A DNA stretch of 64,000 nt from an uncultured Nitrososphaerota archaeon (GTDB taxonomy: Archaea > Thermoproteota > EX4484-205 > JAAOZO01). The notes beneath the pieces were generated by a model. That model ran no database searches. It saw only the letters and a program-made list of their open reading frames with translations, and was not told the DNA's origin. This document shows, one piece after another, positions 1,446 to 61,624 of this stretch. Position numbers and translations under genes: made by a program. The stretch covers positions 1 through 64,000 of the forward strand of contig CAYOYV010000008.1 in NCBI GenBank assembly GCA_964408285.1, read 5' to 3'. Position 1 is the first letter of the stretch, and every line of letters starts with the position of its first letter.

Positions 1446-1533
1446 GGTCTGGTAGCTCAACCTGGGAGAGCGCTCGGCTGAAGGGACGAACGCCGAAACC
1501 GAGTTGTTGCTGGTTCAAATCCGGCCCAGACCA
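1446..1533 (+). tRNA. tRNA-Phe(GAA) with canonical 37/38 intron (1484-1497)
   Basis: GGTCTGG/CCAGACC acceptor stem, CTCGG-CTGAAG|A-CCGAG anticodon arm, GCTGG-TTCAAAT-CCGGC T arm. Confidence 0.93.
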
Positions 1534-1648
1534 CTTAAATCAATGTCTAAGGAAGAGCTACTTCCATCATAGATAGACTCCATGGCGTCATTGCATAGCA
1601 ATAAGATCTAATACCTAGTGTCCATAAGACCAGAAGGTTACGGGCGCT

Positions 1649-5808: not shown

Positions 5809-5911
5809 GGGCCCGTTGCCTAGAGCCAACAGTGGGCAATCAGGATAAGGCGTCGGCTTTCTAATCACCGAAAAGAGCCGGAGATCGAGGGTTCAAATCC
5901 CTCCGGGCCCG
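5809..5911 (+). tRNA. tRNA-Arg(TCT) with two introns (15/16: 5824-5839; 37/38: 5864-5875)
   Basis: GGGCCCG/CGGGCCC acceptor stem, GAGGG-TTCAAAT-CCCTC T arm; BHB central helices GCCT/GGGC and TTTC/GAAA. Confidence 0.92.
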
Positions 5912-6020
5912 CTTTAGTGACCTTTTTTACAAACCTCTTCTTGAGTGATGGCAGAAAACATATCTGGTGCAAGGTTCGCGATTTGGATGGGTATAGATCG
6001 ACTGTGTCAGGGGCATTTGA

Positions 6021-13421: not shown

Positions 13422-13973
13422 TCAAATCAACCTCGATATAGAATAATAGACGACTTCGTTTCTTCTATCAATGACGCCGAGTACCAAAGTCTTTCTGTTG
13501 GACTGGGCTCTTTTCAATATACTAATCAAATCCTCAAACTCTATGGGGGAACCCTCAGACAGTCCAACGACCAAAAAGCTCGGCGTTTCGGTTGGAAAGC
13601 CGCCCTTGTTGTAAACGTTGAAGTCTACACCAAGCCCATAGCCCTCCCTCGCGACGTATCCTCTCGAACGGAGATCCCTCAAAATAAGATACCTGTTCCA
13701 GACGTTTCTGTCTGCCTTGGTTGCCTTCCTGAGTAATTGCTCGAAACCTATCTCGTCCCCCCCTCTAATCCCCACTTTGAGTTTGTTGCTCTCAATCAGG
13801 AACAGTGCCTCAGGAACTGAAAGAACTACCACCTTATCGCCAACTCCATATCCTCGCTCGTTAAGCCATTTTACTTGATTTTCTTCTCTAACCAGGATCT
13901 CATTGGCCCTTAATTTTCCATCTAGGTGGATCGCTTCCTCTTGAGGGCCCTCTGCCTGTTCCATGGCTTTCAT
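13422..13973 (-). CDS. endA: tRNA splicing endonuclease subunit, probably the structural (beta) subunit; start reassigned to 13973
   Basis: LSVPEALFL, RDLRSRGY..REGYGLGVDFNVY, RAQSNRK, VVYY; no His in the expected catalytic position. Confidence 0.85.
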   Translation of the reverse strand: MKAMEQAEGPQEEAIHLDGKLRANEILVREENQVKWLNERGYGVGDKVVVLSVPEALFLIESNKLKVGIRGGDEIGFEQLLRKATKADRNVWNRYLILRDLRSRGYVAREGYGLGVDFNVYNKGGFPTETPSFLVVGLSEGSPIEFEDLISILKRAQSNRKTLVLGVIDRRNEVVYYSISRLI

Positions 13974-14014
13974 GTCTTCCACCGCTTCATCTCTATAAAA
14001 ACGAATGGGGTCAA

Positions 14015-14764
14015 TCAGGGGAGTCGAAGCAATGAATAGTAGGGTATTGACTGTTCCTCTATTATGGCTCTCCATTTATTTCCGACGGAAACCATTGCGA
14101 ATAGGCCAATCACTTTGCCACCGGCCCTTTCTGCCAGTCTAACAAGTGCAGCGATTGTACCGCCAGTTCGAACGACATCGTCGACTATAAGCAAGCGGTC
14201 GTTTCTCCTTATTGCCTTCCTCGGGACGTAGAACGTCCTTACAATTGCCACATCTGTAGGGCTGTATGAATCCTCTATAAAGTCCTCTAAGCCAACTTCT
14301 TTTCTCTCCTTGGCGACCACAAGATCCGCGCCCAGTTCCTCACCAACCAAGCATGCTATTGGAACCCCATCGGCTGCGGCGGTCAAAACCTTGCTCGCGC
14401 CGTACTTCGAGAAATTCTCTGACACCTTAACTGCTACCAATCTAAGAAACGCGGTATCCCAAATCAACGGGGTTACGTCATAATATCCGCCCTTCGATGG
14501 CTTGATCCTTTCTTTAACCAGATCCTCGAATCTTATAGTCTTTTTCAAGGCGCTCAATATCTCCTCGATCCTTTCGTCCGATGGTAACATCCTTCTTCTT
14601 GCATATCTCGATAATACGGACGGAGGAAGGCCCGTCATTTCCGAGAGTTCCCTATGTTTGTATTTCCTCTTCAATAGAGTCAGAAGGTCGATGACCATCA
14701 TCTTTCTCCTCAAAGTCTCAACTTTGTCACTTTGTGCCTCGCTTTTGAGGGGGACTTCAGACAT
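14015..14764 (-). CDS. HTH-phosphoribosyltransferase (PurR-like/APRT-like) protein
   Basis: N-terminal HTH (ELSEMTGLPPSVLSRY) plus PRPP motif IVDDVVRTGGT. Confidence 0.8.
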   Translation of the reverse strand: MSEVPLKSEAQSDKVETLRRKMMVIDLLTLLKRKYKHRELSEMTGLPPSVLSRYARRRMLPSDERIEEILSALKKTIRFEDLVKERIKPSKGGYYDVTPLIWDTAFLRLVAVKVSENFSKYGASKVLTAAADGVPIACLVGEELGADLVVAKERKEVGLEDFIEDSYSPTDVAIVRTFYVPRKAIRRNDRLLIVDDVVRTGGTIAALVRLAERAGGKVIGLFAMVSVGNKWRAIIEEQSIPYYSLLRLP

Positions 14765-21432: not shown

Positions 21433-21594
21433 ACGCCACGGAAGTAGGCCGGTGGAAGAAGCTCGCGCCATGATAGCGCTCCATAGGTGTGTTTGCTCGA
21501 GCTTCTTCTGGGCTCTTTCCGAGGGACCATAGATTCTATCGGATCCTCTCCCGGTTTCAGAAAATATACTCCCTTCGTTATTCGATTGAGATAG

Positions 21595-21704
21595 CGGGCC
21601 CGAGGGGACTGTCAAGGGTTGAGGCCTTTTTGAACCCCTGATTTGCAGCTTAGGAGGTTCAGCGCTTAAGCTCTGCTGCCTTATCCATACTAGGCCACGA
21701 GCCC
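21595..21704 (-). tRNA. tRNA-Arg(CCT) with two introns (30/31: 21658-21672; 59/60: 21609-21628)
   Basis: GGGCTCG/CGGGCCC acceptor stem; GCAG|C-CTCCTAA-GCTGC; AGGGG-TTCAAA|T-CCCCT; BHB helices CAGC/GCTG and TTCA/TGAC. Confidence 0.9.
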
Positions 21705-22665: not shown

Positions 22666-22795
22666 TGTTTGTGTGTTGGCCTAATACTGATTTAACAATT
22701 GTGTCTGCGCGCATCACGAAATAGGAAAAAACAAGAAGGCTCGCGAAGACTACCTGATGCAGATCTACTGGGCGTCGCTGGCGCCGTAACAGAGG

Positions 22796-22891
22796 TGCGG
22801 AGGGCGCGATTTGAACGCACGTAGGCCTTTGCCACGAGATCTTAAGTCTCGCGCAGCGACTCGCGCTTTTTCCAGACTCAGCAACCTCCGC
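22796..22891 (-). tRNA. tRNA-Leu(TAA) with 12-nt intron at 30/31 (22848-22859)
   Basis: GCGGAGG/CCTCCGC acceptor stem, CGAG|A-CTTAAGA-TCTCG, long variable arm, BHB helix CGCG/CGCG. Confidence 0.9.
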
Positions 22892-53386: not shown

Positions 53387-53737
53387 GGCTCTGCAAAAAC
53401 CACCCCAGTTCAGTTCCCTGTCATCTAGCCCGTCTTCTCATCTCCATGAAGCCGTTCACTTCACCTAGGTTCCTCACTGAAGCCAAATCAATAGTAAACC
53501 TCCCAACGCTGAGGACGCAAGTATCTATATAAACGAAAATGAGCATAACTACCGCTATTGGACCGAATTTCTAGAAACGAAACAGAACAACAGGAAACAT
53601 CAGATCATAAGCTCAGATGGAGACCAACCCATTAGACTGAATCTCCGATCGACTGTAGCAACTTGTTCCTTTATGAAGAGTTCAGAGCCATTTGATGTAA
53701 AGACTTATTAGAATAGGGAATTCGATGGATTGCTGGT

Positions 53738-53893
53738 CCCGCTGTAGCTCAACCTGGTAGAGCTTCCGAGCCCGAATGGGCGGAGACGCTGTAGATTTCG
53801 GCCTCGGGCCGAATCGTCCAGCCTACTAGGCTAAAACCGAAACCGGACTGTTGCTGGTTCAAATGGTCTGTCCTGGAAGTCCAGCCGGCGGGA
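53738..53893 (+). tRNA. tRNA-Tyr(GTA) with three introns (30/31: 53769-53787; 37/38: 53795-53841; 59/60: 53864-53879)
   Basis: CCCGCTG/CGGCGGG acceptor stem (C1:G72), TCCG|G-CTGTAG|A-CCGGA, GCTGG-TTCAAA|T-CCAGC; BHB motifs. Confidence 0.9.
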
Positions 53894-53943
53894 CCTTAAT
53901 CAACTGACAATTCTTAAGTAGATGCAGCGCCGAACCCAAAGCA

Positions 53944-54103
53944 GGGCCCGTAGCTCAGCATGGTAGAGACAAGTGTCAGCACCAAAAGCGCCGGTGACCG
54001 TTGTCGGCGATGCTTTTAACCCGGGTGTCACGGGGTTACCCCGCACTACTCGGGTCCAAGACTGATTCGGCTGCGAAACGCTGTGGAAGTCCCGACGGGC
54101 CCG
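53944..54103 (+). tRNA. tRNA-Lys(TTT) with four introns (22/23: 53967-53986; 30/31: 53995-54011; 48/49: 54030-54049; 59/60: 54061-54089)
   Basis: The 160-nt gene collapses to a 74-nt cloverleaf after removing 20+17+20+29 nt; each junction has a BHB central helix (TGGT/ACCA, CGCC/GGCG, GGTG/CACT, TCCA/TGGA). Confidence 0.85.
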
Positions 54104-54164
54104 CCTTCTCAACCCAACAAGAAGAGTAAGATTAATATAAATCACCATTTGGTAGCACAAAGAG

Positions 54165-54428
54165 TTGAAGGCAGATTTAGCCCATCCTACGGGCCTTTTT
54201 GACCCGTTATCCCATATCTTATCACCAACATATGAGATTCTTTCAGAGGACCGGAGAGGAGAGGTCCTTCGAACATATAGGATAAAACCCTACAATTTGC
54301 CGAAGATTCTAATCACAGATCCTGCAATGAAAGCAACCGGAGCGAAAATCGGTGACATCATCAAGATAACAAGGAAAACAGAAACGGCCGGAACAACTAT
54401 TAGCTATAGGTTGGTGGTGTCTGAATGA
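54165..54428 (+). CDS. rpoH: RNA polymerase subunit Rpo5 (RpoH)
   Basis: HILSP, LPKILITDP, GDIIKITRKTETAG..YRLV. Confidence 0.95.
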   Translation: MKADLAHPTGLFDPLSHILSPTYEILSEDRRGEVLRTYRIKPYNLPKILITDPAMKATGAKIGDIIKITRKTETAGTTISYRLVVSE

Positions 54429-57400
54429 CGGTCCCCAGTCTGAATATATCGATTACGAACAAGGACTTGGAATACGTCTATTATCTGTTAGTCTCAAAGA
54501 GGGGCTTGGCCCAGCATCACATCGACTCATATAACGAACTAGTGCAGAAAGACATCAACAAGATAGTCGAGGAGGTTGGCGATTTACGCGTTTCACTGCC
54601 GGATCTAAGGCACAGAATACAGTTTGGAAAAGTCTTCGTAGAAACCCCGTCCGTTGAAGAGGCATCTGGAGCGCAGAATCCGGTTTACCCACTTGAGGCG
54701 CGTCTTCGGAACATTACTTATTCCTCCCCGCTGTTCCTGGAATACAAAGAATACAAGAACGAGAGGCTCATGCACGAAGGCAACGTGAAGATAGGGGCCT
54801 TTCCTGTTATGGTGAAATCAAGTCTCTGCAGGCTTCATAACGCTCGTTCGGAAGAACTCATCAGTGCCGGGGAAGATCCAAGAGATCCGGGAGGTTATTT
54901 CATTGTCAATGGTTCGGAGAAAGTGATCGTAGGCCTTGAGGATTTCGCCAGCAATAGGATATTCACAGAGAAGAAGAAAATGGGAAGTTCGATATTCTAT
55001 ATCTCCAGGGTATTCTCATCGACAGTGGGTTATAGGACCAAAGTCGAGGTCAGGTTCAATCAACAAAACAAATTCCTGCGCGTCTACTTCCCGGGAATAG
55101 GGGAGGACATTCCCTTTGTCATCTTGATGAGAGCGCTCGGGATTGAAAAGGATGTGGAAATAGCCCTTGGAACCTCAGTTTTTGGAGAAGTGCAAAACGA
55201 ACTCTTCAAGTCATTTGACGAAGCTTCAGGAATAATAGACAGAGACCAAGCGATAGACTTCATAGGGGGAAGAGCTGCCTACGGGCAACCCAAAGAGATC
55301 AGAATGAGGCGTGCGGAGTATTTGCTCGACAGGGTTCTCTTACCACATATTGGGACTTCCTCTGACGATAGATTGCGGAAGGCGTATTACTTGGGGAAAA
55401 TGGCTGAGCGAGCGGTTGCCATTAAACTCGGGTGGAGAAGGGCCGATGATAAGGACCATTATAAGAACAAAAGGCTTCGTTTTGCAGGGCCATTAATAGC
55501 TGAGATGTTTAGGCAGGCCTTCAGGAGAATGGTGCGGGATCTAAAATACCAGGTAGAAAGAGCAGACATAAAGAGAAGTGCCCCGCCTAGGAGCGTTGCG
55601 CATCTGGTTTCGACCAGATTGATCTCTGAATTACTGAATCATGCAATAGCCACTGGCAATTGGGGAAGGCGATTGGCTGGCGTTTCACAACTCCTAGAAA
55701 GAACAAACTATGTCTCCACCATAAGCCACCTGAGAAGAATACAATCGACGCTAAGCCGCAGCCAAGCCAACTTCGAGGCGAGGGATCTACATCCAACTCA
55801 ATGGGGCAGAATCGACCCTTCAGAATCTCCTGAGGGGAGCAACTGCGGTCTAGTAAAGAACCTTAGCCTTCTGGCCCAGATTTCGGTGACAGCCGATACC
55901 GAGGAGATAATCAAGACCCTTACGTCACTAGGAGTCGTGTCAGCTGAAAGCGCAGACGAGAAACTAAGGAAAGAGGGGGCGGAGGTGTATGTCAATGGAA
56001 CGTTGGTGGGGTACCATGTTGAAGGGCGCCCGCTCGCCAAGGAATTGGTCCGACTGAGAAGGAGAGGCGCGCTTTCAAATCAAGTGAACGTAGGGGCCTA
56101 CGTTCATGACTATGCTGGCGTAACCAAAGTTGAAGTAGTGATCAATGCGGATCCCGGCCGTCCGAGGCGCCCACTGGTGGTTGTCGAGGAAGGAATACCC
56201 AGACTCAAGGCAGAACATGTTCAGAAACTGAAGGAGGGGGACCTAACGATCGAGGACCTGACTGACCTCGGTGTTGTGGAGTATCTTGATGCCGAAGAGG
56301 AAGAGAATACGCTAATCGCAACCAGCTTAGAAGAACTGATCCCGGAGGTCCAACATCTTGAAGCATCACCCATGAGTGTCTTCGGAGCAACGACATCCTC
56401 CATTCCGTTTGCTGAACACAACCAATCACCGAGGAATACGTATGAGGGAGCAATGGCTAAACAGGCATTGGGATATCCAACTTCTGTCCTCACGTTCAAT
56501 TACTCGACCACATCGCACTACCTAGTGTATCCTCAGGTCCCGCTTGTGAACACGGTGACCAGTGATATTGTTGGCTTTGAGAAGAATCCAATAGGACAGA
56601 ATTTTGTAGTTGCTGTTATCTCCACGCCGTATAATATGGAGGACGCCCTCGTCATAAACAAAGCATCAGTTGAAAGAGGACTGGGAAGAACCGTATCCTA
56701 CTTCGTCTACGAGGCAGAAGCCCAACTTTATGCAATGGGAGAAAGGGACAGAATACAGAAACCGGAATCAAGCGTGAGAGGCTATCGCGGCGAGGACGCA
56801 TACGCAAGATTGGACGAGGACGGAATAATCCCCCTTGAGAGCCACATCGCAGGTGGAGAAGTCATAATAGGTAGGACCAGTCCGCCGAGATTCCTAGAGG
56901 AACGGGTCGATATATGGGGCCAGCCATCCTATAGGCGTGACACATCAGTTCTCCTTAAGGCATCTCACTCAGGTTATGTAGACGATGTGCTTCTGACCGA
57001 GGATAAGGAACAGAACAAACTTGTGAAGGTGAGGATCCGGGACACAAGAACACCGGAAATAGGCGACAAGTTCGCCACTCGTGCAGGACAAAAGGGAATA
57101 ATAGGTGCAATCGTGCCGCAGGAGGATCTCCCATTCACCACATCGGGCATGACACCGGATGCCATGATCAATCCTCATGCGATTCCTTCCAGGATGACCA
57201 TCGGGCACTTCCTTGAGAGTATTTTTGGGAAGGCCGCAACCATAACAGGAAAACAAGTCAGAGGAGATCCATTCATCCACGACTCGCCGGATTCAATCTA
57301 TGACCTCTTGAAGTCCCATGGATTTGAGCCATACGGAGAGGAGCTAATGGTTAACGGAAGAACCGGGGAATTACTGGATGCGAAGATATTCGTAGGATTG

Positions 57401-57799
57401 GTATACTATCAGAGGCTTCACCACATGGTCAAGGACAAAATGCATGCTAGGGCGAGAGGACAGGTCACCCTATTGACTCATCAACCAACAGAGGGCAGGG
57501 CTAGAGGCGGAGGTCTCCGCTTCGGAGAGATGGAGAGGGACTGTCTGGTTGGTCACGGGGCTTCTAGGCTGCTTCAGGACAGGCTCCTCGAGGAATCAGA
57601 CAAGACGACGATATATATCTGTGAGAATTGTGGCACAGTTGGATATTACGATTCAAAACAAAGGCGATATGTCTGTAGGATCTGCGGTAGAAACACAAAC
57701 ATAAGTGCCGTGACCATTTCCTATGCGTTCAAGCTTCTACTTCAGGAAATCATGAGCCTAGGCATATTCCCACGAATCACCTTGAAGGAGAGGATCTAA
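54425..57799 (+). CDS. rpoB: RNA polymerase subunit Rpo2 (unsplit RpoB)
   Basis: GGYFIVNGSE, SPEGSNCGL, GDKFATRAGQKG, GGLRFGEMERD. Confidence 0.98.
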   Translation: MTVPSLNISITNKDLEYVYYLLVSKRGLAQHHIDSYNELVQKDINKIVEEVGDLRVSLPDLRHRIQFGKVFVETPSVEEASGAQNPVYPLEARLRNITYSSPLFLEYKEYKNERLMHEGNVKIGAFPVMVKSSLCRLHNARSEELISAGEDPRDPGGYFIVNGSEKVIVGLEDFASNRIFTEKKKMGSSIFYISRVFSSTVGYRTKVEVRFNQQNKFLRVYFPGIGEDIPFVILMRALGIEKDVEIALGTSVFGEVQNELFKSFDEASGIIDRDQAIDFIGGRAAYGQPKEIRMRRAEYLLDRVLLPHIGTSSDDRLRKAYYLGKMAERAVAIKLGWRRADDKDHYKNKRLRFAGPLIAEMFRQAFRRMVRDLKYQVERADIKRSAPPRSVAHLVSTRLISELLNHAIATGNWGRRLAGVSQLLERTNYVSTISHLRRIQSTLSRSQANFEARDLHPTQWGRIDPSESPEGSNCGLVKNLSLLAQISVTADTEEIIKTLTSLGVVSAESADEKLRKEGAEVYVNGTLVGYHVEGRPLAKELVRLRRRGALSNQVNVGAYVHDYAGVTKVEVVINADPGRPRRPLVVVEEGIPRLKAEHVQKLKEGDLTIEDLTDLGVVEYLDAEEEENTLIATSLEELIPEVQHLEASPMSVFGATTSSIPFAEHNQSPRNTYEGAMAKQALGYPTSVLTFNYSTTSHYLVYPQVPLVNTVTSDIVGFEKNPIGQNFVVAVISTPYNMEDALVINKASVERGLGRTVSYFVYEAEAQLYAMGERDRIQKPESSVRGYRGEDAYARLDEDGIIPLESHIAGGEVIIGRTSPPRFLEERVDIWGQPSYRRDTSVLLKASHSGYVDDVLLTEDKEQNKLVKVRIRDTRTPEIGDKFATRAGQKGIIGAIVPQEDLPFTTSGMTPDAMINPHAIPSRMTIGHFLESIFGKAATITGKQVRGDPFIHDSPDSIYDLLKSHGFEPYGEELMVNGRTGELLDAKIFVGLVYYQRLHHMVKDKMHARARGQVTLLTHQPTEGRARGGGLRFGEMERDCLVGHGASRLLQDRLLEESDKTTIYICENCGTVGYYDSKQRRYVCRICGRNTNISAVTISYAFKLLLQEIMSLGIFPRITLKERI

Positions 57800-57802
57800 A
57801 TC

Positions 57803-60800
57803 ATGAGCAAGGAGATAGAGCTGAAATCGATTGATTCGGTGAAGTTCGGAATCCTGAATCCAAACATAATCAGGAAAATGTCGGTCGTAGAAATCTCTTC
57901 AGAAGAGGTCTATAACGAGGACGGAACGGCAGTTCCTGGAGGTGTAATGGATCTCAGGTTAGGCACCATTGAACCGAGCCAGAGATGCCAGACTTGTGGG
58001 AATCCACCCACAAAATGCCCCGGTCACTTCGGGCACATAGAATTGCCAAGTCCGGTCATTAACTATCTCTTCGTCAAGGAGATTCACCTACTTCTAACTG
58101 TCACTTGCAGGTCATGCGGGAGGCCACTTCTTCCGGAGGAGAAGGTCAGGGAATGCAAAAACGAGATGAAGGAATACATGGCAGAATATGGAGCGGTTCC
58201 CGAGAAATTCTATTCCCAGATAACTAGGGAAGCAAAGAGAATGTCGAGCTGTCCCCACTGTGGGTCAGCCCAATTCGTGGTAAAACCGGTCAAACCTGCC
58301 GGATTCTTCGAGATATCCCCAGACAAGACGACTACGAAACTGACGCCGTCAATGGTCAGGGAGAGGCTGGCACGAATACCCGACGGCGATCTACCCCTGC
58401 TGAAGATAGACCAGGAAGTAAGTAGGCCGGAATGGATGGTTGTGGAGCCTCTTCCAGTGCCACCAGTGCAAGTGAGGCCCTCGATAATACTAGAGAGCGG
58501 GGAGAGATCCGAGGATGACCTAACGCACAAGCTCGTAGATATCGTGAGGGCATCGCAAAGAATGAAGGAAGCGCTTGAGAGCGGGGCTTCGCCAATGATC
58601 GTTCAGGATTTCGAGGATCTTCTTCAATACCATGTCACCACGTACCTAGATAATGAAGCAAGTGGCGTTCCTCCCTCAAGGCATAGAACCAACAAAATCC
58701 TGAAGACTCTCTCACAAAGACTGAAAGGAAAAGAGGGAAGGTTCAGAAAGAACCTCTCAGGAAAAAGGGTGGACTTCTCAGCTAGAACGGTGATATCGCC
58801 GGATCCATCACTCGAAGTGGACGAAGTTGGTGTTCCGCTGCGCATAGCCATGCAATTAACTATTCCTGAGAAAATCAATCCATACAACAGGACCGGCCTG
58901 ATTGAGCTGGTGAAGAATGGTCCGAATAAATATCCAGGTGCGCTATATGTCATTAGACCCGATGGGGCCAGAATAAAGCTGGAATTCGTCAAGGACCTGA
59001 CCTCATTCGCGGACAATCTAGAAGAGGGATACACAGTTGAAAGGCACCTGCTGGATGAGGACCATGTCGTGTTCAACAGGCAACCCTCCCTGCATAGGAT
59101 TTCGATGATGGGGCACAGAGTTAGAGTGCTGCCTGGGTCGACCTTGAGATTACACCCGGCCGTCTGTCCGCCATACAATGCAGATTTCGATGGAGATGAA
59201 ATGAATCTTCATGTGCCTCAATCGACTGAAGCCATTGCAGAAACCAAGGAACTCCTTCAAGTTAAGCGGAATTACATAACACCAAGGTACGGGGCGCCTA
59301 TAATAGGTGCAATAAGGGATTTCGTCACCAGTGCGTATCTTCTCACCCGTTCAGATACACATCTTTCCCGGAAGGAGGCATACGCCCTAGCTGCGGCAGC
59401 AGGGAGCTCGGCCCCCTTCCCTAAGCCAGCAATTGAAGGGCCTCCACCACTCTGGTCAGGCAAGCAGGTTTTCGGCCTATTACTTCCCTCCGACTTCGAG
59501 TACAAAACCATAGCAAAGGTCTGCTCGAATTGCGATACCTGCAAAGAGGAGGACTGCCCATATGATGCCTATGTATTGATCAAGAACGGCAAGCTGCTCA
59601 AAGGGGTAATCGATCACGCTTCAATCGGAGCTGAAAAGGCCGGTACGATTCTCCATGAAATTCTTCTACATTATGGCGAGGAAAGAGCGAACACCTTCTT
59701 GACTTCCTTGACAAAAATGGTATCGAAATTCGTTGAGCTAAGGGGATTCAGCATGTCTTACAGTGAACTCATATTACCGGAGGGTGCCGCTCAGGAGATT
59801 TCTCAGTATCTCAACGGTGCCGACGAAAGGGTTGATACTGTTATCTCCGACTTCAGGTCCGGCAAGCTTCCGAAAATGGCAGGCCTCTCAAATGAGGATT
59901 CCTTAGAAGCATATATAATGGACGTCCTAGAAACCATAAGGACCAAGACCGGGGAAATAGCAAGCAACTCATTGGGCCTTGAAAACAACGCTGTTGTCAT
60001 GACAAGGACTGGAGCCAGAGGTTCGAATGTGAACCTAGGACAAATGTCGGCCTCCCTTGGACCACAGTCGCTGAGGGGCAAGAGGATCTCTCGAGGATAT
60101 ACCGGGAGACCGCTTCCACACTTCAGACGAAACGATCTGGGTCCCGCAGCCAGGGGCTTCATAAAGTCGAGCTACATGACTGGTCTATCTCCAACGGAGT
60201 TCTTCTACCACGCGATGGGTGGGAGAGAGTCTCTTGTTGATACAGCTGTCAGGACGCAACAAAGTGGATACCTACAGAGGCGCCTCATACATGCACTCGA
60301 AACATTGAAAATAGAATATGATGGCACGGTTAGGGATCCATATGGGAACGTTGTTGAATTCATCTATGGCGGAGATGGCCTGGATCCATCAAGAAGCTAC
60401 CATGGGAAATTTCCAATCGATGTGGTGTTGAAGAACCTAATTGCCTCACACAAGGCAAAGCTAGGAGCAAGGGTCGCGGTGTCACATCTAAAGGACGTTC
60501 TTGATAAGAAAGCAGCAGCTATCCCGCCTTCGCTGAGAGATGAGCTAAAGAAGAAGATACTCGAGTTAGGGATAGAATCGGAGAAGATTTCTGGAATCGT
60601 GCAAGGAGCAGTTCAGAAGTATCAAGACTTGGCAGCTGACCCCGGCGAAAGTGTAGGCGTCGTCGCGGCTCAATCAATAGGCGAGCCCGGGACACAAATG
60701 ACGCTGAGAACCTTCCACTATGCTGGTGTCAGAGAGGCAACCGTCACTATCGGGCTACCAAGGCTGATGGAGCTATTGGATGCAAGGAGAGTGCCAAAGA

Positions 60801-61624
60801 CGGCCACAATGAAGATTCATCTGTTGCCTGAGTATGGCTCCAAACAAGCAACCGCACTGAAGATAGCGAAGAAAATGGTGTATACCTCTATAAACGACAT
60901 TGCCTCTGAGATGACGGAACAGCCAGTGAGGTTACTTGTGAACATAACGCTATCTAAGGAAATGATGACCGAAAGGTCACTGACCCCCAAGAAGGTTCTA
61001 GATGTACTGGTGTCGGCAGGCTTCAAGGCCACGTCCAACGGAGAGATCATTCAGGTGAAGGCCAAAGACGCTGAGGAGCTTGAGGGCGTAATCGAAAAAC
61101 TGAAGAAGACACCTGTGTCCGGAATCATGTCTATAACCAGAGTCACCGTGAAGCAGGAAGGAGACGAGTGGATCTTGGACACTGAAGGATCTAATCTTTC
61201 AGAAGTGCTAAAAATACCGGAAGTTGACAAGAAGAGAGTATCTACGAACAACGTACATGAAGTGGCGGAAGTCATAGGCATAGAGGGCGCCCGCCTCGCG
61301 CTCATGCAAGAGATAAAGAGTACTCTGGATGAACAAGGCCTTGATGTCGATTTGAGGCACATTGAGTTGGTCGCATCTGCGATGACAACGAGTGGAAGAA
61401 TAAAGCAGATAGGGCGTCACGGGCTGTCAGGCGAAAAGACGAGCGTGTTAGCGAAGGCTGCCTTCGAAAGAACCATACCGACCATTGTGGACGGAGCAGT
61501 GACTGGTTCAGTGGATTACATGAAGGGAATGACGGAGAGGGTATTAGCCGGAGAGGAGATAAAAGCAGGAACGGGCATGATAGATGTCTATGTCGATTTG
61601 CGAAAGAGTTTAATCCAAGAGTAG
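57803..61624 (+). CDS. rpoA: RNA polymerase largest subunit Rpo1 (fused A'+A'')
   Basis: NADFDGD catalytic motif; A'' motifs AQSIGEPGTQMTLRTFH and AAFE in the same ORF. Confidence 0.98.
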   Translation: MSKEIELKSIDSVKFGILNPNIIRKMSVVEISSEEVYNEDGTAVPGGVMDLRLGTIEPSQRCQTCGNPPTKCPGHFGHIELPSPVINYLFVKEIHLLLTVTCRSCGRPLLPEEKVRECKNEMKEYMAEYGAVPEKFYSQITREAKRMSSCPHCGSAQFVVKPVKPAGFFEISPDKTTTKLTPSMVRERLARIPDGDLPLLKIDQEVSRPEWMVVEPLPVPPVQVRPSIILESGERSEDDLTHKLVDIVRASQRMKEALESGASPMIVQDFEDLLQYHVTTYLDNEASGVPPSRHRTNKILKTLSQRLKGKEGRFRKNLSGKRVDFSARTVISPDPSLEVDEVGVPLRIAMQLTIPEKINPYNRTGLIELVKNGPNKYPGALYVIRPDGARIKLEFVKDLTSFADNLEEGYTVERHLLDEDHVVFNRQPSLHRISMMGHRVRVLPGSTLRLHPAVCPPYNADFDGDEMNLHVPQSTEAIAETKELLQVKRNYITPRYGAPIIGAIRDFVTSAYLLTRSDTHLSRKEAYALAAAAGSSAPFPKPAIEGPPPLWSGKQVFGLLLPSDFEYKTIAKVCSNCDTCKEEDCPYDAYVLIKNGKLLKGVIDHASIGAEKAGTILHEILLHYGEERANTFLTSLTKMVSKFVELRGFSMSYSELILPEGAAQEISQYLNGADERVDTVISDFRSGKLPKMAGLSNEDSLEAYIMDVLETIRTKTGEIASNSLGLENNAVVMTRTGARGSNVNLGQMSASLGPQSLRGKRISRGYTGRPLPHFRRNDLGPAARGFIKSSYMTGLSPTEFFYHAMGGRESLVDTAVRTQQSGYLQRRLIHALETLKIEYDGTVRDPYGNVVEFIYGGDGLDPSRSYHGKFPIDVVLKNLIASHKAKLGARVAVSHLKDVLDKKAAAIPPSLRDELKKKILELGIESEKISGIVQGAVQKYQDLAADPGESVGVVAAQSIGEPGTQMTLRTFHYAGVREATVTIGLPRLMELLDARRVPKTATMKIHLLPEYGSKQATALKIAKKMVYTSINDIASEMTEQPVRLLVNITLSKEMMTERSLTPKKVLDVLVSAGFKATSNGEIIQVKAKDAEELEGVIEKLKKTPVSGIMSITRVTVKQEGDEWILDTEGSNLSEVLKIPEVDKKRVSTNNVHEVAEVIGIEGARLALMQEIKSTLDEQGLDVDLRHIELVASAMTTSGRIKQIGRHGLSGEKTSVLAKAAFERTIPTIVDGAVTGSVDYMKGMTERVLAGEEIKAGTGMIDVYVDLRKSLIQE

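What the first reader, a model, noticed from the sequence alone, without database searches (positions are those of the whole stretch)
53944..54103. tRNA-Lys(UUU) apparently interrupted by four BHB introns, one at position 48/49
Seen: a 160-nt gene in which removing 53967-53986, 53995-54011, 54030-54049 and 54061-54089 gives a 74-nt cloverleaf. Each junction has a 4-bp central helix (TGGT/ACCA, CGCC/GGCG, GGTG/CACT, TCCA/TGGA) flanked by 3-nt bulges, and cutting after the second bulge nucleotide gives exactly these boundaries. More than half of the gene is intron. Known: multi-intron archaeal tRNAs are described mainly from Thermoproteales, and the maximum I recall is three. Inference: four introns, and a site at 48/49, may be unprecedented. 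Some BHB outer helices compete with the mature stems, which implies ordered splicing. Standard tRNA callers would probably miss this gene.
Basis: partly seen in the sequence, partly recalled or inferred. Interest (0 to 1): 0.88.

Follow-up and report, generated by a model that had tools for sequence, protein, structure and literature searches.

The report
Four-intron tRNA-Lys gene in archaeon
This is a real archaeal lysine tRNA gene cut into five pieces by four short introns, an extreme but not unique case in a little-studied lineage where most tRNA genes are interrupted.

Summary
Removing 53967-53986, 53995-54011, 54030-54049 and 54061-54089 from 53944-54103 gives a 74-nt cloverleaf that ARAGORN calls tRNA-Lys(UUU). 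ARAGORN and the Rfam tRNA model both miss the unspliced gene.

- **Boundaries:** a spliced alignment against an uninterrupted tRNA-Lys(UUU) from another genome recovers the same four boundaries.
- **Splicing motif:** every junction has a fully paired 4-bp central helix between two 3-nt bulges (chance about 3e-6). The sites are 22/23, 30/31, 48/49 and 59/60.
- **Selection:** a contig about 93% identical, from an unrelated metagenome, keeps all four introns. Its 16 differences inside the gene all lie in introns (0 of 74 exon bases, p = 2.5e-5).
- **Relatives:** sister genera carry one intron (59/60) or two (30/31 and 59/60), so 22/23 and 48/49 look like recent gains.
- **Machinery and need:** the genome encodes two EndA paralogs and RtcB, uses AAA codons, and showed no second tRNA-Lys(UUU).

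"Unprecedented" does not hold. tRNA-Ile(GAU) in this genome also has four introns, and a 2026 preprint reports up to five in Asgard archaea. I could not establish whether 48/49 is a new site. No RNA data exist, so splicing is inferred. The spliced T-loop carries C55 in place of the near-universal U55.

The parts
53944..54103 (+). tRNA-Lys(UUU) gene: five exons and four introns. Discriminator G73 is at 54103; no CCA is encoded.
   Evidence: Spliced product called tRNA-Lys(ttt) by ARAGORN. Boundaries recovered with an independent uninterrupted reference.
53944..53966 (+). Exon 1, tRNA positions 1-22: acceptor 5' strand, D-stem 5' strand, D-loop and G22.
   Evidence: Identical to the uninterrupted stretch in G002.
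53967..53986 (+). Intron 1, 20 nt, site 22/23. Central helix TGGT/ACCA; weak flanking helices (0/1), so a relaxed motif.
   Evidence: Absent in G002, G001 and all 43 metagenome loci. Two substitutions in the X10 relative, one turning U-A into U.G.
53987..53994 (+). Exon 2, positions 23-30.
53995..54011 (+). Intron 2, 17 nt, site 30/31. Central helix CGCC/GGCG; flanking helices 5/3.
   Evidence: The same site and helix occur in G002-type orthologs (15-16 nt). The same site is used in G007 and G009 and in seven other metagenome loci (25 nt).
54012..54029 (+). Exon 3, positions 31-48: G31, anticodon loop CUUUUAA, anticodon-stem 3' strand and variable loop.
54030..54049 (+). Intron 3, 20 nt, site 48/49. 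Strict hBHBh': central helix GGTG/CACT, flanking helices 5/5.
   Evidence: Absent in G002, G001 and all 43 metagenome loci. Present in the X10 relative.
54050..54060 (+). Exon 4, positions 49-59: T-stem 5' strand and T-loop bases 54-59 (TCCAAG).
54061..54089 (+). Intron 4, 29 nt, site 59/60. Central helix TCCA/TGGA, with the T-stem as the exon-side helix.
   Evidence: The 59/60 intron is shared with G002 and G001, and the helix covaries across them. In the X10 relative: 9 substitutions and 2 indels, including a G-C to C-G swap in the hairpin.
54090..54103 (+). Exon 5, positions 60-73.
53911..53920 (+). A/T-rich TATA-like box (TTCTTAAGTA), 24-33 nt upstream of the tRNA 5' end. Probable own promoter (inferred).
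   Evidence: Similar A/T-rich boxes lie at about the same distance upstream of most of the 27 tRNA genes listed.
13422..14075 (-). EndA paralog, 217 aa, probably the structural (beta-like) subunit of the splicing endonuclease. The catalytic-type paralog (194 aa) is on contig C4 (L051:1201-1785).
   Evidence: Pfam PF01974 and PF02778 in both proteins; NCBIfam endA.

Best explanation
This is the functional gene for the only tRNA-Lys(UUU) found in this genome. The genome is an uncultured Thermoproteota archaeon; its nearest named relatives by RpoB are MAGs labelled Thaumarchaeota/Nitrososphaera (72-74%) and Brockarchaeota (57%).

- **Transcription (inferred):** the gene is transcribed from its own TATA-like promoter as a precursor of about 160 nt.
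- **Cleavage (inferred):** the two-subunit EndA endonuclease cuts four bulge-helix-bulge motifs, each after the second base of a 3-nt bulge. This removes introns at 22/23, 30/31, 48/49 and 59/60.
- **Ligation (inferred):** RtcB joins the five exons into a 74-nt tRNA, to which CCA is then added.
- **Order (inferred):** the full motifs of neighbouring introns share bases, so they cannot all form at once. Splicing probably goes through successive refolding.
- **History:** the 30/31 and 59/60 introns are older. The 22/23 and 48/49 introns were gained in this genus.

Shown here: the gene structure, the motifs, selection on the exons, the intron-poorer orthologs and the presence of the enzymes. Inferred: transcription, cleavage, ligation and the splicing order.
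For: 1. The spliced product is a cloverleaf tRNA-Lys(ttt).
2. A motif-aware spliced alignment against the uninterrupted tRNA-Lys(UUU) of G044 returns exactly these four introns. A motif-free alignment also needs four insertions.
3. All four junctions have 4 of 4 central-helix pairs in the exact register. Background frequency is 0.019; joint chance is about 3e-6.
4. Contigs from two other studies (X5, X8) span the gene with no listed difference.
5. A contig of about 93% identity from a fourth study (X10) keeps all four introns. It has 0 changes in 74 exon bases against 16 in 86 intron bases (Fisher p = 2.5e-5) and 8 in 79 upstream bases.
6. In that relative, two central-helix changes give U.G pairs, one hairpin pair swaps G-C to C-G, and its intron-4 region folds more stably (-23.3 against -14.2 kcal/mol).
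7. Orthologs have identical exons apart from the T-loop, and fewer introns. G002, in the same position upstream of rpoH-rpoB, has 30/31 and 59/60. G001 has 59/60 only. More distant relatives have none. Of 43 metagenome loci with an exact exon-3 match, 11 have the two-intron form.
8. The 59/60 central helix covaries across orthologs: TTCG/CGGA, TTCG/CGGG, TTCA/TGAA and TCCA/TGGA.
9. The genome has two EndA paralogs and RtcB.
10. AAA codons are used (24 in rpoB, 29 in rpoA). No second tRNA-Lys(UUU) turned up by pattern search, seeded spliced alignment or an anticodon-hairpin scan.
11. The genome is intron-rich overall: 48 introns in 27 reference-guided tRNA genes, 26 of them confirmed by ARAGORN after splicing.
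Against: - There is no RNA evidence, so no intron has been shown to be excised.
- The 22/23 junction lacks a flanking helix of 2 bp or more (0/1). By the stricter published classes (hBHBh', hBH, HBh') it is not canonical.
- In the X10 relative the 48/49 central helix loses its G.U pair (G.A).
- The spliced T-loop is TCCAAGT, with C at the near-universally U position 55. That is unusual for a working tRNA.
- The genome is 93.7% complete, so a second Lys(UUU) gene in the unassembled part cannot be excluded.
- The intron scoring in my alignment favours fully paired helices, so the census motif counts are not independent evidence.
- Of the 29 differences in the X10 contig, 27 are itemised. The other two are not placed.
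Confidence: 0.88

Rival explanations
1. It is a decaying tRNA pseudogene that has accumulated insertions, and AAA is decoded by a Lys(UUU) gene not present in the assembly.
For: The T-loop has C55 instead of U55. The genome is only 93.7% complete. There are no RNA data.
Against: - The exons are untouched (0 of 74) in a relative with 16 changes in 86 intron bases and 8 in 79 upstream bases.
- All four insertions sit in exact BHB register.
- The exons are identical to the G002 ortholog outside the T-loop.
- The T-loop changes preserve or improve pairing with the intron.
- No other Lys(UUU) was found by three searches.
Confidence: 0.05
2. The gene is real, but only three insertions are endonuclease introns. 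The 22/23 insertion, which has no flanking helices, is removed another way, stays in the tRNA, or has different boundaries.
For: Flanking helices at 22/23 are 0 and 1 bp. The Asgard preprint (10.64898/2026.10.13.758758, passages read) notes that D-arm insertions often lack a canonical motif and that some may not be introns.
Against: - The central helix is 4 of 4 Watson-Crick pairs, with 3-nt bulges, at the one placement of three that gives the conserved D-arm.
- The G002 ortholog shows the uninterrupted D-arm.
- The helix stays paired (U.G) in the X10 relative, while the insertion itself varies.
- A 20-nt insert inside the D-stem 3' strand would be incompatible with the cloverleaf.
Confidence: 0.06
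3. It is an assembly artefact or chimera of the metagenome bin.
For: The window comes from a draft assembly of 46 contigs.
Against: Contigs assembled independently from runs of three other studies cover the whole gene. Two show no listed difference and one is a diverged relative with the same structure.
Confidence: 0.01

Closest known systems
[quoted passage not shown]
   Same: - Short BHB introns at non-canonical sites. 22/23, 30/31 and 59/60 are listed sites (PMC4090602, passage read).
- A two-subunit EndA of the type reported to cut relaxed motifs.
- Introns close enough together that one motif can form fully only after another is removed, as described for tRNAscan-SE 2.0 (PMC8450103, passage read).
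   Different: - Four introns instead of the stated maximum of three.
- A different lineage, related to Brockarchaeota rather than Thermoproteales.
- One site (48/49) that is not in the lists I could read.
- No paralogous intron copies in the genome. In Thermoproteales, intron families shared between tRNAs are reported.
[quoted passage not shown]
   Same: - Most tRNA genes are interrupted.
- Standard tools miss introns.
- Up to five intervening sequences per gene are reported.
- Gains are repeated and recent.
- No evidence of intron copying between genes.
   Different: - A different phylum.
- Here every one of the four junctions has a fully paired central helix.
- A closely spaced series of relatives (1, 2 and 4 introns in the same gene) is available.
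Split tRNA-Lys(CUU) at 30/31 in Nanoarchaeum equitans and Staphylothermus (PMC4090602, passage read)
   Same: The same break point (30/31) in a lysine tRNA.
   Different: Those are two separate genes joined in trans. Here it is a cis intron, one of four.

Membership tests
Archaeal BHB (endonuclease-spliced) tRNA intron | [quoted passage not shown] | tested here: met
   4 of 4 pairs at all four junctions (one G.U at 48/49). The bulges are AGA/AAA, GGT/ATG, TCA/ACT and AGA/AGT.
Archaeal BHB (endonuclease-spliced) tRNA intron | At least one flanking helix of 2 or more contiguous pairs (classes hBHBh', hBH, HBh'). | tested here: inconclusive
   Met at 30/31 (5/3), 48/49 (5/5) and 59/60 (5/1). Not met at 22/23 (0/1). 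With one bulged A, a 2-bp exon helix (C16-G24, G15-C25) can be drawn there, by my own reading of the sequence.
Archaeal BHB (endonuclease-spliced) tRNA intron | Removing the intron(s) restores a canonical cloverleaf tRNA matching uninterrupted orthologs. | tested here: met
   ARAGORN calls tRNA-Lys(ttt). The exons match the G002, G001 and G044 orthologs.
Archaeal BHB (endonuclease-spliced) tRNA intron | A splicing endonuclease and an RNA ligase are encoded in the genome. | tested here: met
   Two EndA paralogs, each with PF01974 and PF02778. RtcB (PF01139) at C15:34836-36143. Only the 194-aa paralog shows a His in the stretch where I recall the catalytic His of EndA; that is my reading of the sequences, and the motif is recalled.
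Archaeal BHB (endonuclease-spliced) tRNA intron | The intron is actually excised from the transcript. | not testable with these tools
   No RNA run holds the stretch.
Functional elongator tRNA | Conserved T-loop U54-U55-C56-R57-A58. | tested here: not met
   The T-loop is TCCAAGT, with C55. The same exon sequence is kept in the X10 relative. Of 27 tRNAs, 22 print a TTC... T-loop, 2 rows are misregistered by my script, and 3 have a non-U55.

The most novel reading that the evidence does not exclude
This Brockarchaeota-related family is a third, independent hot spot of tRNA intron proliferation, beside Thermoproteales and some Asgard classes.

- **Gain caught in steps:** the same tRNA-Lys(UUU) gene has one, two and four introns in three sister genera.
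- **Motif overwrites the T-loop:** position 55 is C or G in three tRNAs of this genome whose T-loop bases 54-57 pair with a 59/60-type intron. One of them is the sole tRNA-Lys(UUU).
- **Consequence:** either U55/pseudouridine-55 is dispensable in these tRNAs or it is restored after transcription.
Probability: 0.35. Interest if true: 0.65.

Novelty: new member of a known kind. Interest (0 to 1): 0.45.

Why it matters
- **Record for the phylum, in what I could read:** it adds a well-supported four-intron tRNA gene. The sources for cultured Thermoproteota give three as the maximum.
- **Annotation:** the lineage's tRNA set is largely invisible to standard callers. The Rfam model finds 18 tRNAs in a 94%-complete genome, so automatic annotation would report missing tRNAs.
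- **Intron gain:** the 1, 2 and 4-intron series among close relatives, plus a strain-level variant, is useful material for studying how BHB introns are gained.
- **Exon-intron co-evolution:** the C55 T-loop shows exon and intron changing together.
- **What it does not change:** it does not alter how archaeal tRNA splicing is understood.

Tried and rejected
- **RNA evidence:** no RNA holder was listed for window 53700-54500, so expression and splicing could not be tested.
- **Splicing order from pair probabilities** (ViennaRNA, all 15 intermediates): inconclusive. The energy model prefers a 3x3 internal loop to the two staggered bulges at 48/49 and gives the BHB pairs near-zero probability. I draw no order from it.
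- **Alternative T-loop with U55**, using the TTCG inside intron 4 and two introns in the T-loop: rejected. The required junction has no BHB pairing (my reading of the sequence), and that TTCG is disrupted in the X10 relative.
- **References from the complete genome G026**: these gave no new tRNA loci, so they were too divergent. The census stays partial: 32 genes resolved, plus tRNA-Lys(CUU) at C4:36647 with an unresolved T-loop insertion. About 13 expected isoacceptors were not located, so a gene with five introns in this genome cannot be excluded.
- **tRNA-Ile third intron:** the automatic placement (weak motif, T-stem mismatch) was replaced by my manual reading as a 13-nt insertion at 37/38, which gives a perfect anticodon stem. 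The count of four is unchanged.
- **Intron paralogs in the genome:** none beyond 12-14-nt chance matches.
- **G009 insertion at the variable-loop/T-stem boundary:** no single-intron placement has a fully paired helix. Left unresolved.
- **Literature on 48/49:** the search tools do not accept "48/49", and supplements were closed. Supplementary Data 4 of PMC11291895 and the supplementary tables of the 2026 preprint may list four-intron genes and 48/49 sites, but I could not see them. Searches made.
- **Minus-strand ORF 53900-54160** (86 aa): not pursued. The exon-only conservation pattern fits an RNA gene.

Full report
**What is there**

Removing 53967-53986 (20 nt), 53995-54011 (17 nt), 54030-54049 (20 nt) and 54061-54089 (29 nt) leaves five exons of 23, 8, 18, 11 and 14 nt. 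The 74-nt product is called tRNA-Lys(ttt) by ARAGORN. It has a 7-bp acceptor stem, a 4-bp D-stem, G18 and G19 in the D-loop, a 5-bp anticodon stem, a CUUUUAA loop, a 5-nt variable loop, a 5-bp T-stem and discriminator G.

In standard tRNA numbering the introns lie at 22/23, 30/31, 48/49 and 59/60. Introns make up 86 of the 160 nt.

The unspliced gene is invisible to the tools I had:
- ARAGORN on the window.
- The Rfam tRNA model at gathering score.
- The Rfam tRNA model at E<=10 on the whole genome.
- The Rfam tRNA model at E<=10 on 53600-54300.

**Is it more than chance?**

In the published BHB register, the four exon bases that end two bases before the 5' cut pair with the four intron bases that end two bases before the 3' cut. 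In that register all four junctions have 4 of 4 pairs with 3-nt bulges.

| Site | Central helix | Flanking helices (exon side / intron side, bp) |
|---|---|---|
| 22/23 | TGGT/ACCA | 0 / 1 |
| 30/31 | CGCC/GGCG | 5 / 3 |
| 48/49 | GGTG/CACT (one G.U) | 5 / 5 |
| 59/60 | TCCA/TGGA | 5 (the T-stem) / 1 |

The intron boundaries can slide only to 3, 1, 2 and 4 placements that give the same product. Such a helix occurs at 1.9% of random positions in this window, so the joint chance is about 3e-6 (my multiplication).

I also aligned the uninterrupted tRNA-Lys(UUU) of a phylum-level relative (G044, locus L134) to the region, allowing introns. A motif-free version needs four insertions.

**Evidence that the exons are under selection**

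No RNA run holds the stretch. DNA contigs from four other studies were laid on 53800-54300.
- X5 and X8 span the gene with no listed difference, so it is not an assembly artefact.
- X9's contigs stop at 53965 and resume at 54184, so they say nothing about the gene.
- X10 holds a 452-nt contig of a relative about 93% identical (29 differences and 2 gaps over 53865-54300), and it keeps all four introns.

Inside the gene, the 14 substitutions and 2 single-base indels listed for X10 all fall in introns. That is 0 of 74 exon bases against 16 of 86 intron bases (Fisher p = 2.5e-5), and 8 of 79 bases upstream.

How those changes affect pairing:
- Two central-helix changes (53981 and 54087, A to G) turn U-A into U.G.
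- One change (54047, T to A) breaks the G.U pair at 48/49.
- In the intron-4 hairpin, G54075 and C54079 swap to C and G.
- The relative's intron-4 region folds more stably (-23.3 against -14.2 kcal/mol).

One caveat: 27 of the 29 differences are itemised, and two are not placed.

**Relatives**

By RpoB, the organism is nearest to MAGs labelled Nitrososphaera sp., Thaumarchaeota archaeon and Thermoproteota archaeon (72-74% identity). The next nearest are Candidatus Brockarchaeota (57%).

| Genome or locus | Relation | Introns in tRNA-Lys(UUU) |
|---|---|---|
| G000 (this window) | genus g1 | 22/23, 30/31, 48/49, 59/60 |
| G002 | same family, another genus; same position upstream of rpoH-rpoB | 30/31 (16 nt), 59/60 (20 nt); exons identical outside the T-loop, which is TTCGAAT |
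| G001 | third genus of the family | 59/60 only |
| Five phylum-level relatives | same phylum | none |
| G007 | sister family | 15/16, 30/31, 37/38 |
| G009 | sister family | 15/16, 30/31, 59/60, plus an unresolved insertion of about 46 nt between the variable loop and the T-stem |

A scan of metagenome contigs for the exact 18-nt exon 3 gave 43 loci:
- 11 have the two-intron form (30/31 and 59/60).
- 7 have a single 25-nt intron at 30/31.
- 1 is archaeal and uninterrupted.
- 18 are bacterial-type tRNA-Lys.
- 6 are not tRNA.
- None has an insertion at 22/23 or 48/49.

The tool warns that records very near the window's own genome may be left out.

The 59/60 central helix covaries across orthologs: TTCG/CGGA, TTCG/CGGG, TTCA/TGAA and TCCA/TGGA. 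The simplest history is that 30/31 and 59/60 are old, and that 22/23 and 48/49 were gained in this genus before G000 and the X10 relative split.

**The genome as a whole**

The Rfam model finds only 18 tRNAs in this 93.7%-complete genome. It finds 25 in G002, 27 in G001 and 34 in G044.

I ran a reference-guided census, using uninterrupted tRNAs of G044, G001 and G002 as references. It resolved 27 tRNA genes with 48 introns.

| Introns per gene | Genes |
|---|---|
| 0 | 2 |
| 1 | 10 |
| 2 | 9 |
| 3 | 4 |
| 4 | 2 |

Of the 27 spliced products, 26 are called as tRNA by ARAGORN. The 27th is called directly on the genome with a canonical intron. ARAGORN adds five more genes carrying two introns in total, which gives 50 introns in 32 genes. 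About 13 expected isoacceptors were not located.

- The second four-intron gene is tRNA-Ile(GAU) at C17:12671-12817. Its introns lie in the D-loop, at 30/31, at 37/38 (my manual correction of the automatic placement) and at 59/60.
- tRNA-Tyr(GUA), with three introns, lies 50 nt upstream of the Lys gene, at window 53738-53893.
- My intron scoring rewards full helices, so the motif statistics of the census are not independent evidence.

**Machinery and need**

- Two EndA paralogs carry both Pfam domains. One is 194 aa on contig C4, and the other is 217 aa at window 13422-14075 on the minus strand. This fits the two-subunit enzyme type that is reported to cut relaxed motifs (PMC4033280 and PMC5829648; passages and abstract read).
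- RtcB is present.
- AAA codons are used: 24 in rpoB and 29 in rpoA.
- No other tRNA-Lys(UUU) was found by a pattern search with one mismatch allowed, by seeded spliced alignment, or by a scan of 22 UUU-loop hairpins (best score 33 of 148).
- An A/T-rich box at 53911-53920 resembles the boxes upstream of most other tRNA genes.

**How it most likely works**

The precursor is transcribed from its own promoter. EndA cuts each motif after the second bulge base, RtcB joins the exons, and CCA is added. All of these steps are inferred.

The full motifs overlap (read):
- The exon-side helix of the 48/49 motif (54019-54023 with 54051-54055) uses bases that the 59/60 motif needs for its T-stem helix and central helix.
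- The 5-bp exon-side helix of the 30/31 motif (53984-53988 with 54013-54017) covers the 3' bulge of the 22/23 motif.

The four motifs therefore cannot all be complete at once, which argues for stepwise refolding. My attempt to predict an order from pair probabilities was inconclusive.

**Comparison with what is known**

- Sites 22/23, 30/31 and 59/60 are listed non-canonical sites (PMC4090602, passage read).
- Three introns is given as the archaeal maximum in PMC8450103, PMC4033280 and PMC4390854 (passages read).
- A bioRxiv preprint of October 2026 (10.64898/2026.10.13.758758; abstract, passages and section 2.3 read) reports 2.2 intervening sequences per gene and "up to five in a single gene" in Asgard families.
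- PMC11291895 (passages read) reports that over half of the tRNA genes in three Asgard genomes have multiple introns.
- I found no paper on tRNA introns in Brockarchaeota-related archaea. The search returned only PMC11291895, which is on another subject.
- Whether 48/49 has been recorded before I cannot say: the supplements were closed and Sugahara 2007 is not held.

**Verdict**

It is an extreme member of a known class, in a lineage where this has not been described. It is neither unique in its own genome nor unprecedented among archaea.

The most unexpected detail is the C55 T-loop. It is conserved in the X10 relative and paralleled by non-U55 T-loops in tRNA-Gly(UCC) and tRNA-Gly(CCC) of the same genome, both of which have T-loop introns.

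Noticed in passing
window 54055-54060 plus 54090 (T-loop of the spliced tRNA); also G000 C1:123303-123410 (-) and C1:44770-44895 (+): Position 55 of the T-loop, almost always U, is not U in three tRNAs of this genome. It is C in tRNA-Lys(UUU) (TCCAAGT) and tRNA-Gly(UCC) (TCCAACT), and G in tRNA-Gly(CCC) (TGCAAAT). All three have a T-loop intron whose central helix pairs with bases 54-57. Of the other 24 tRNAs listed, 22 print a TTC... T-loop and 2 rows are misregistered by my script. The G009 tRNA-Lys(UUU) also reads TCCGACT.
   Followed up: partly
window 53738-53893 (+): tRNA-Tyr(GUA) with three introns, at 30/31 (19 nt), 37/38 (47 nt) and 59/60 (16 nt). It has a C1-G72 pair and A73, lies 50 nt upstream of the Lys gene, and has its own A/T-rich box. 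ARAGORN and Rfam do not call it unspliced.
   Followed up: partly
G000 C17:12671-12817 (+): tRNA-Ile(GAU) also has four introns: in the D-loop (21 nt), at 30/31 (14 nt), at 37/38 (13 nt, my manual placement; no clear BHB) and at 59/60 (21 nt).
   Followed up: partly
whole genome G000: The tRNA set is very intron-rich: 48 introns in 27 reference-guided genes, or 50 in 32 with the ARAGORN-only genes. The preprint quotes 1.54 per gene for Pyrobaculum calidifontis. About 13 expected tRNAs were not located.
   Followed up: partly
G000 C4:36647-36775 (+): tRNA-Lys(CUU) has an insertion of about 60 nt in the T-loop. My alignment splits it into two introns (27 and 31 nt) without a convincing T-loop.
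   Followed up: partly
L033 (G009), about 1499-1625: The tRNA-Lys(UUU) of a sister-family genome has an insertion of about 46 nt between the variable loop and the T-stem, containing a repeat of GGTCCAGGG. No single-intron placement gives a full BHB helix. In both G007 and G009 base 1 (C) faces C72 in the acceptor stem.
   Followed up: partly
window 57803-61624 (+): RpoA is a single 1273-aa ORF carrying Rpb1 domains 1-5, so it is not split into A' and A''. It follows rpoH (54165-54428) and rpoB (54425-57799). From recall, an unsplit rpoA is known from Thaumarchaeota and Korarchaeota.
   Followed up: partly
window 1446-1534 (+), 5809-5914 (+), 21594-21704 (-), 22795-22891 (-): Four further tRNA genes lie in the window: Phe(GAA) with one intron, Arg(UCU) with two, Arg(CCU) with two and Leu(UAA) with one.
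   Followed up: partly
G000 C26:204-1810 (-): ARAGORN calls a tRNA-Gln(ttg) with a 1514-nt intron. This is probably spurious, because a Gln(UUG) gene exists at C14:4385-4481.
   Followed up: no
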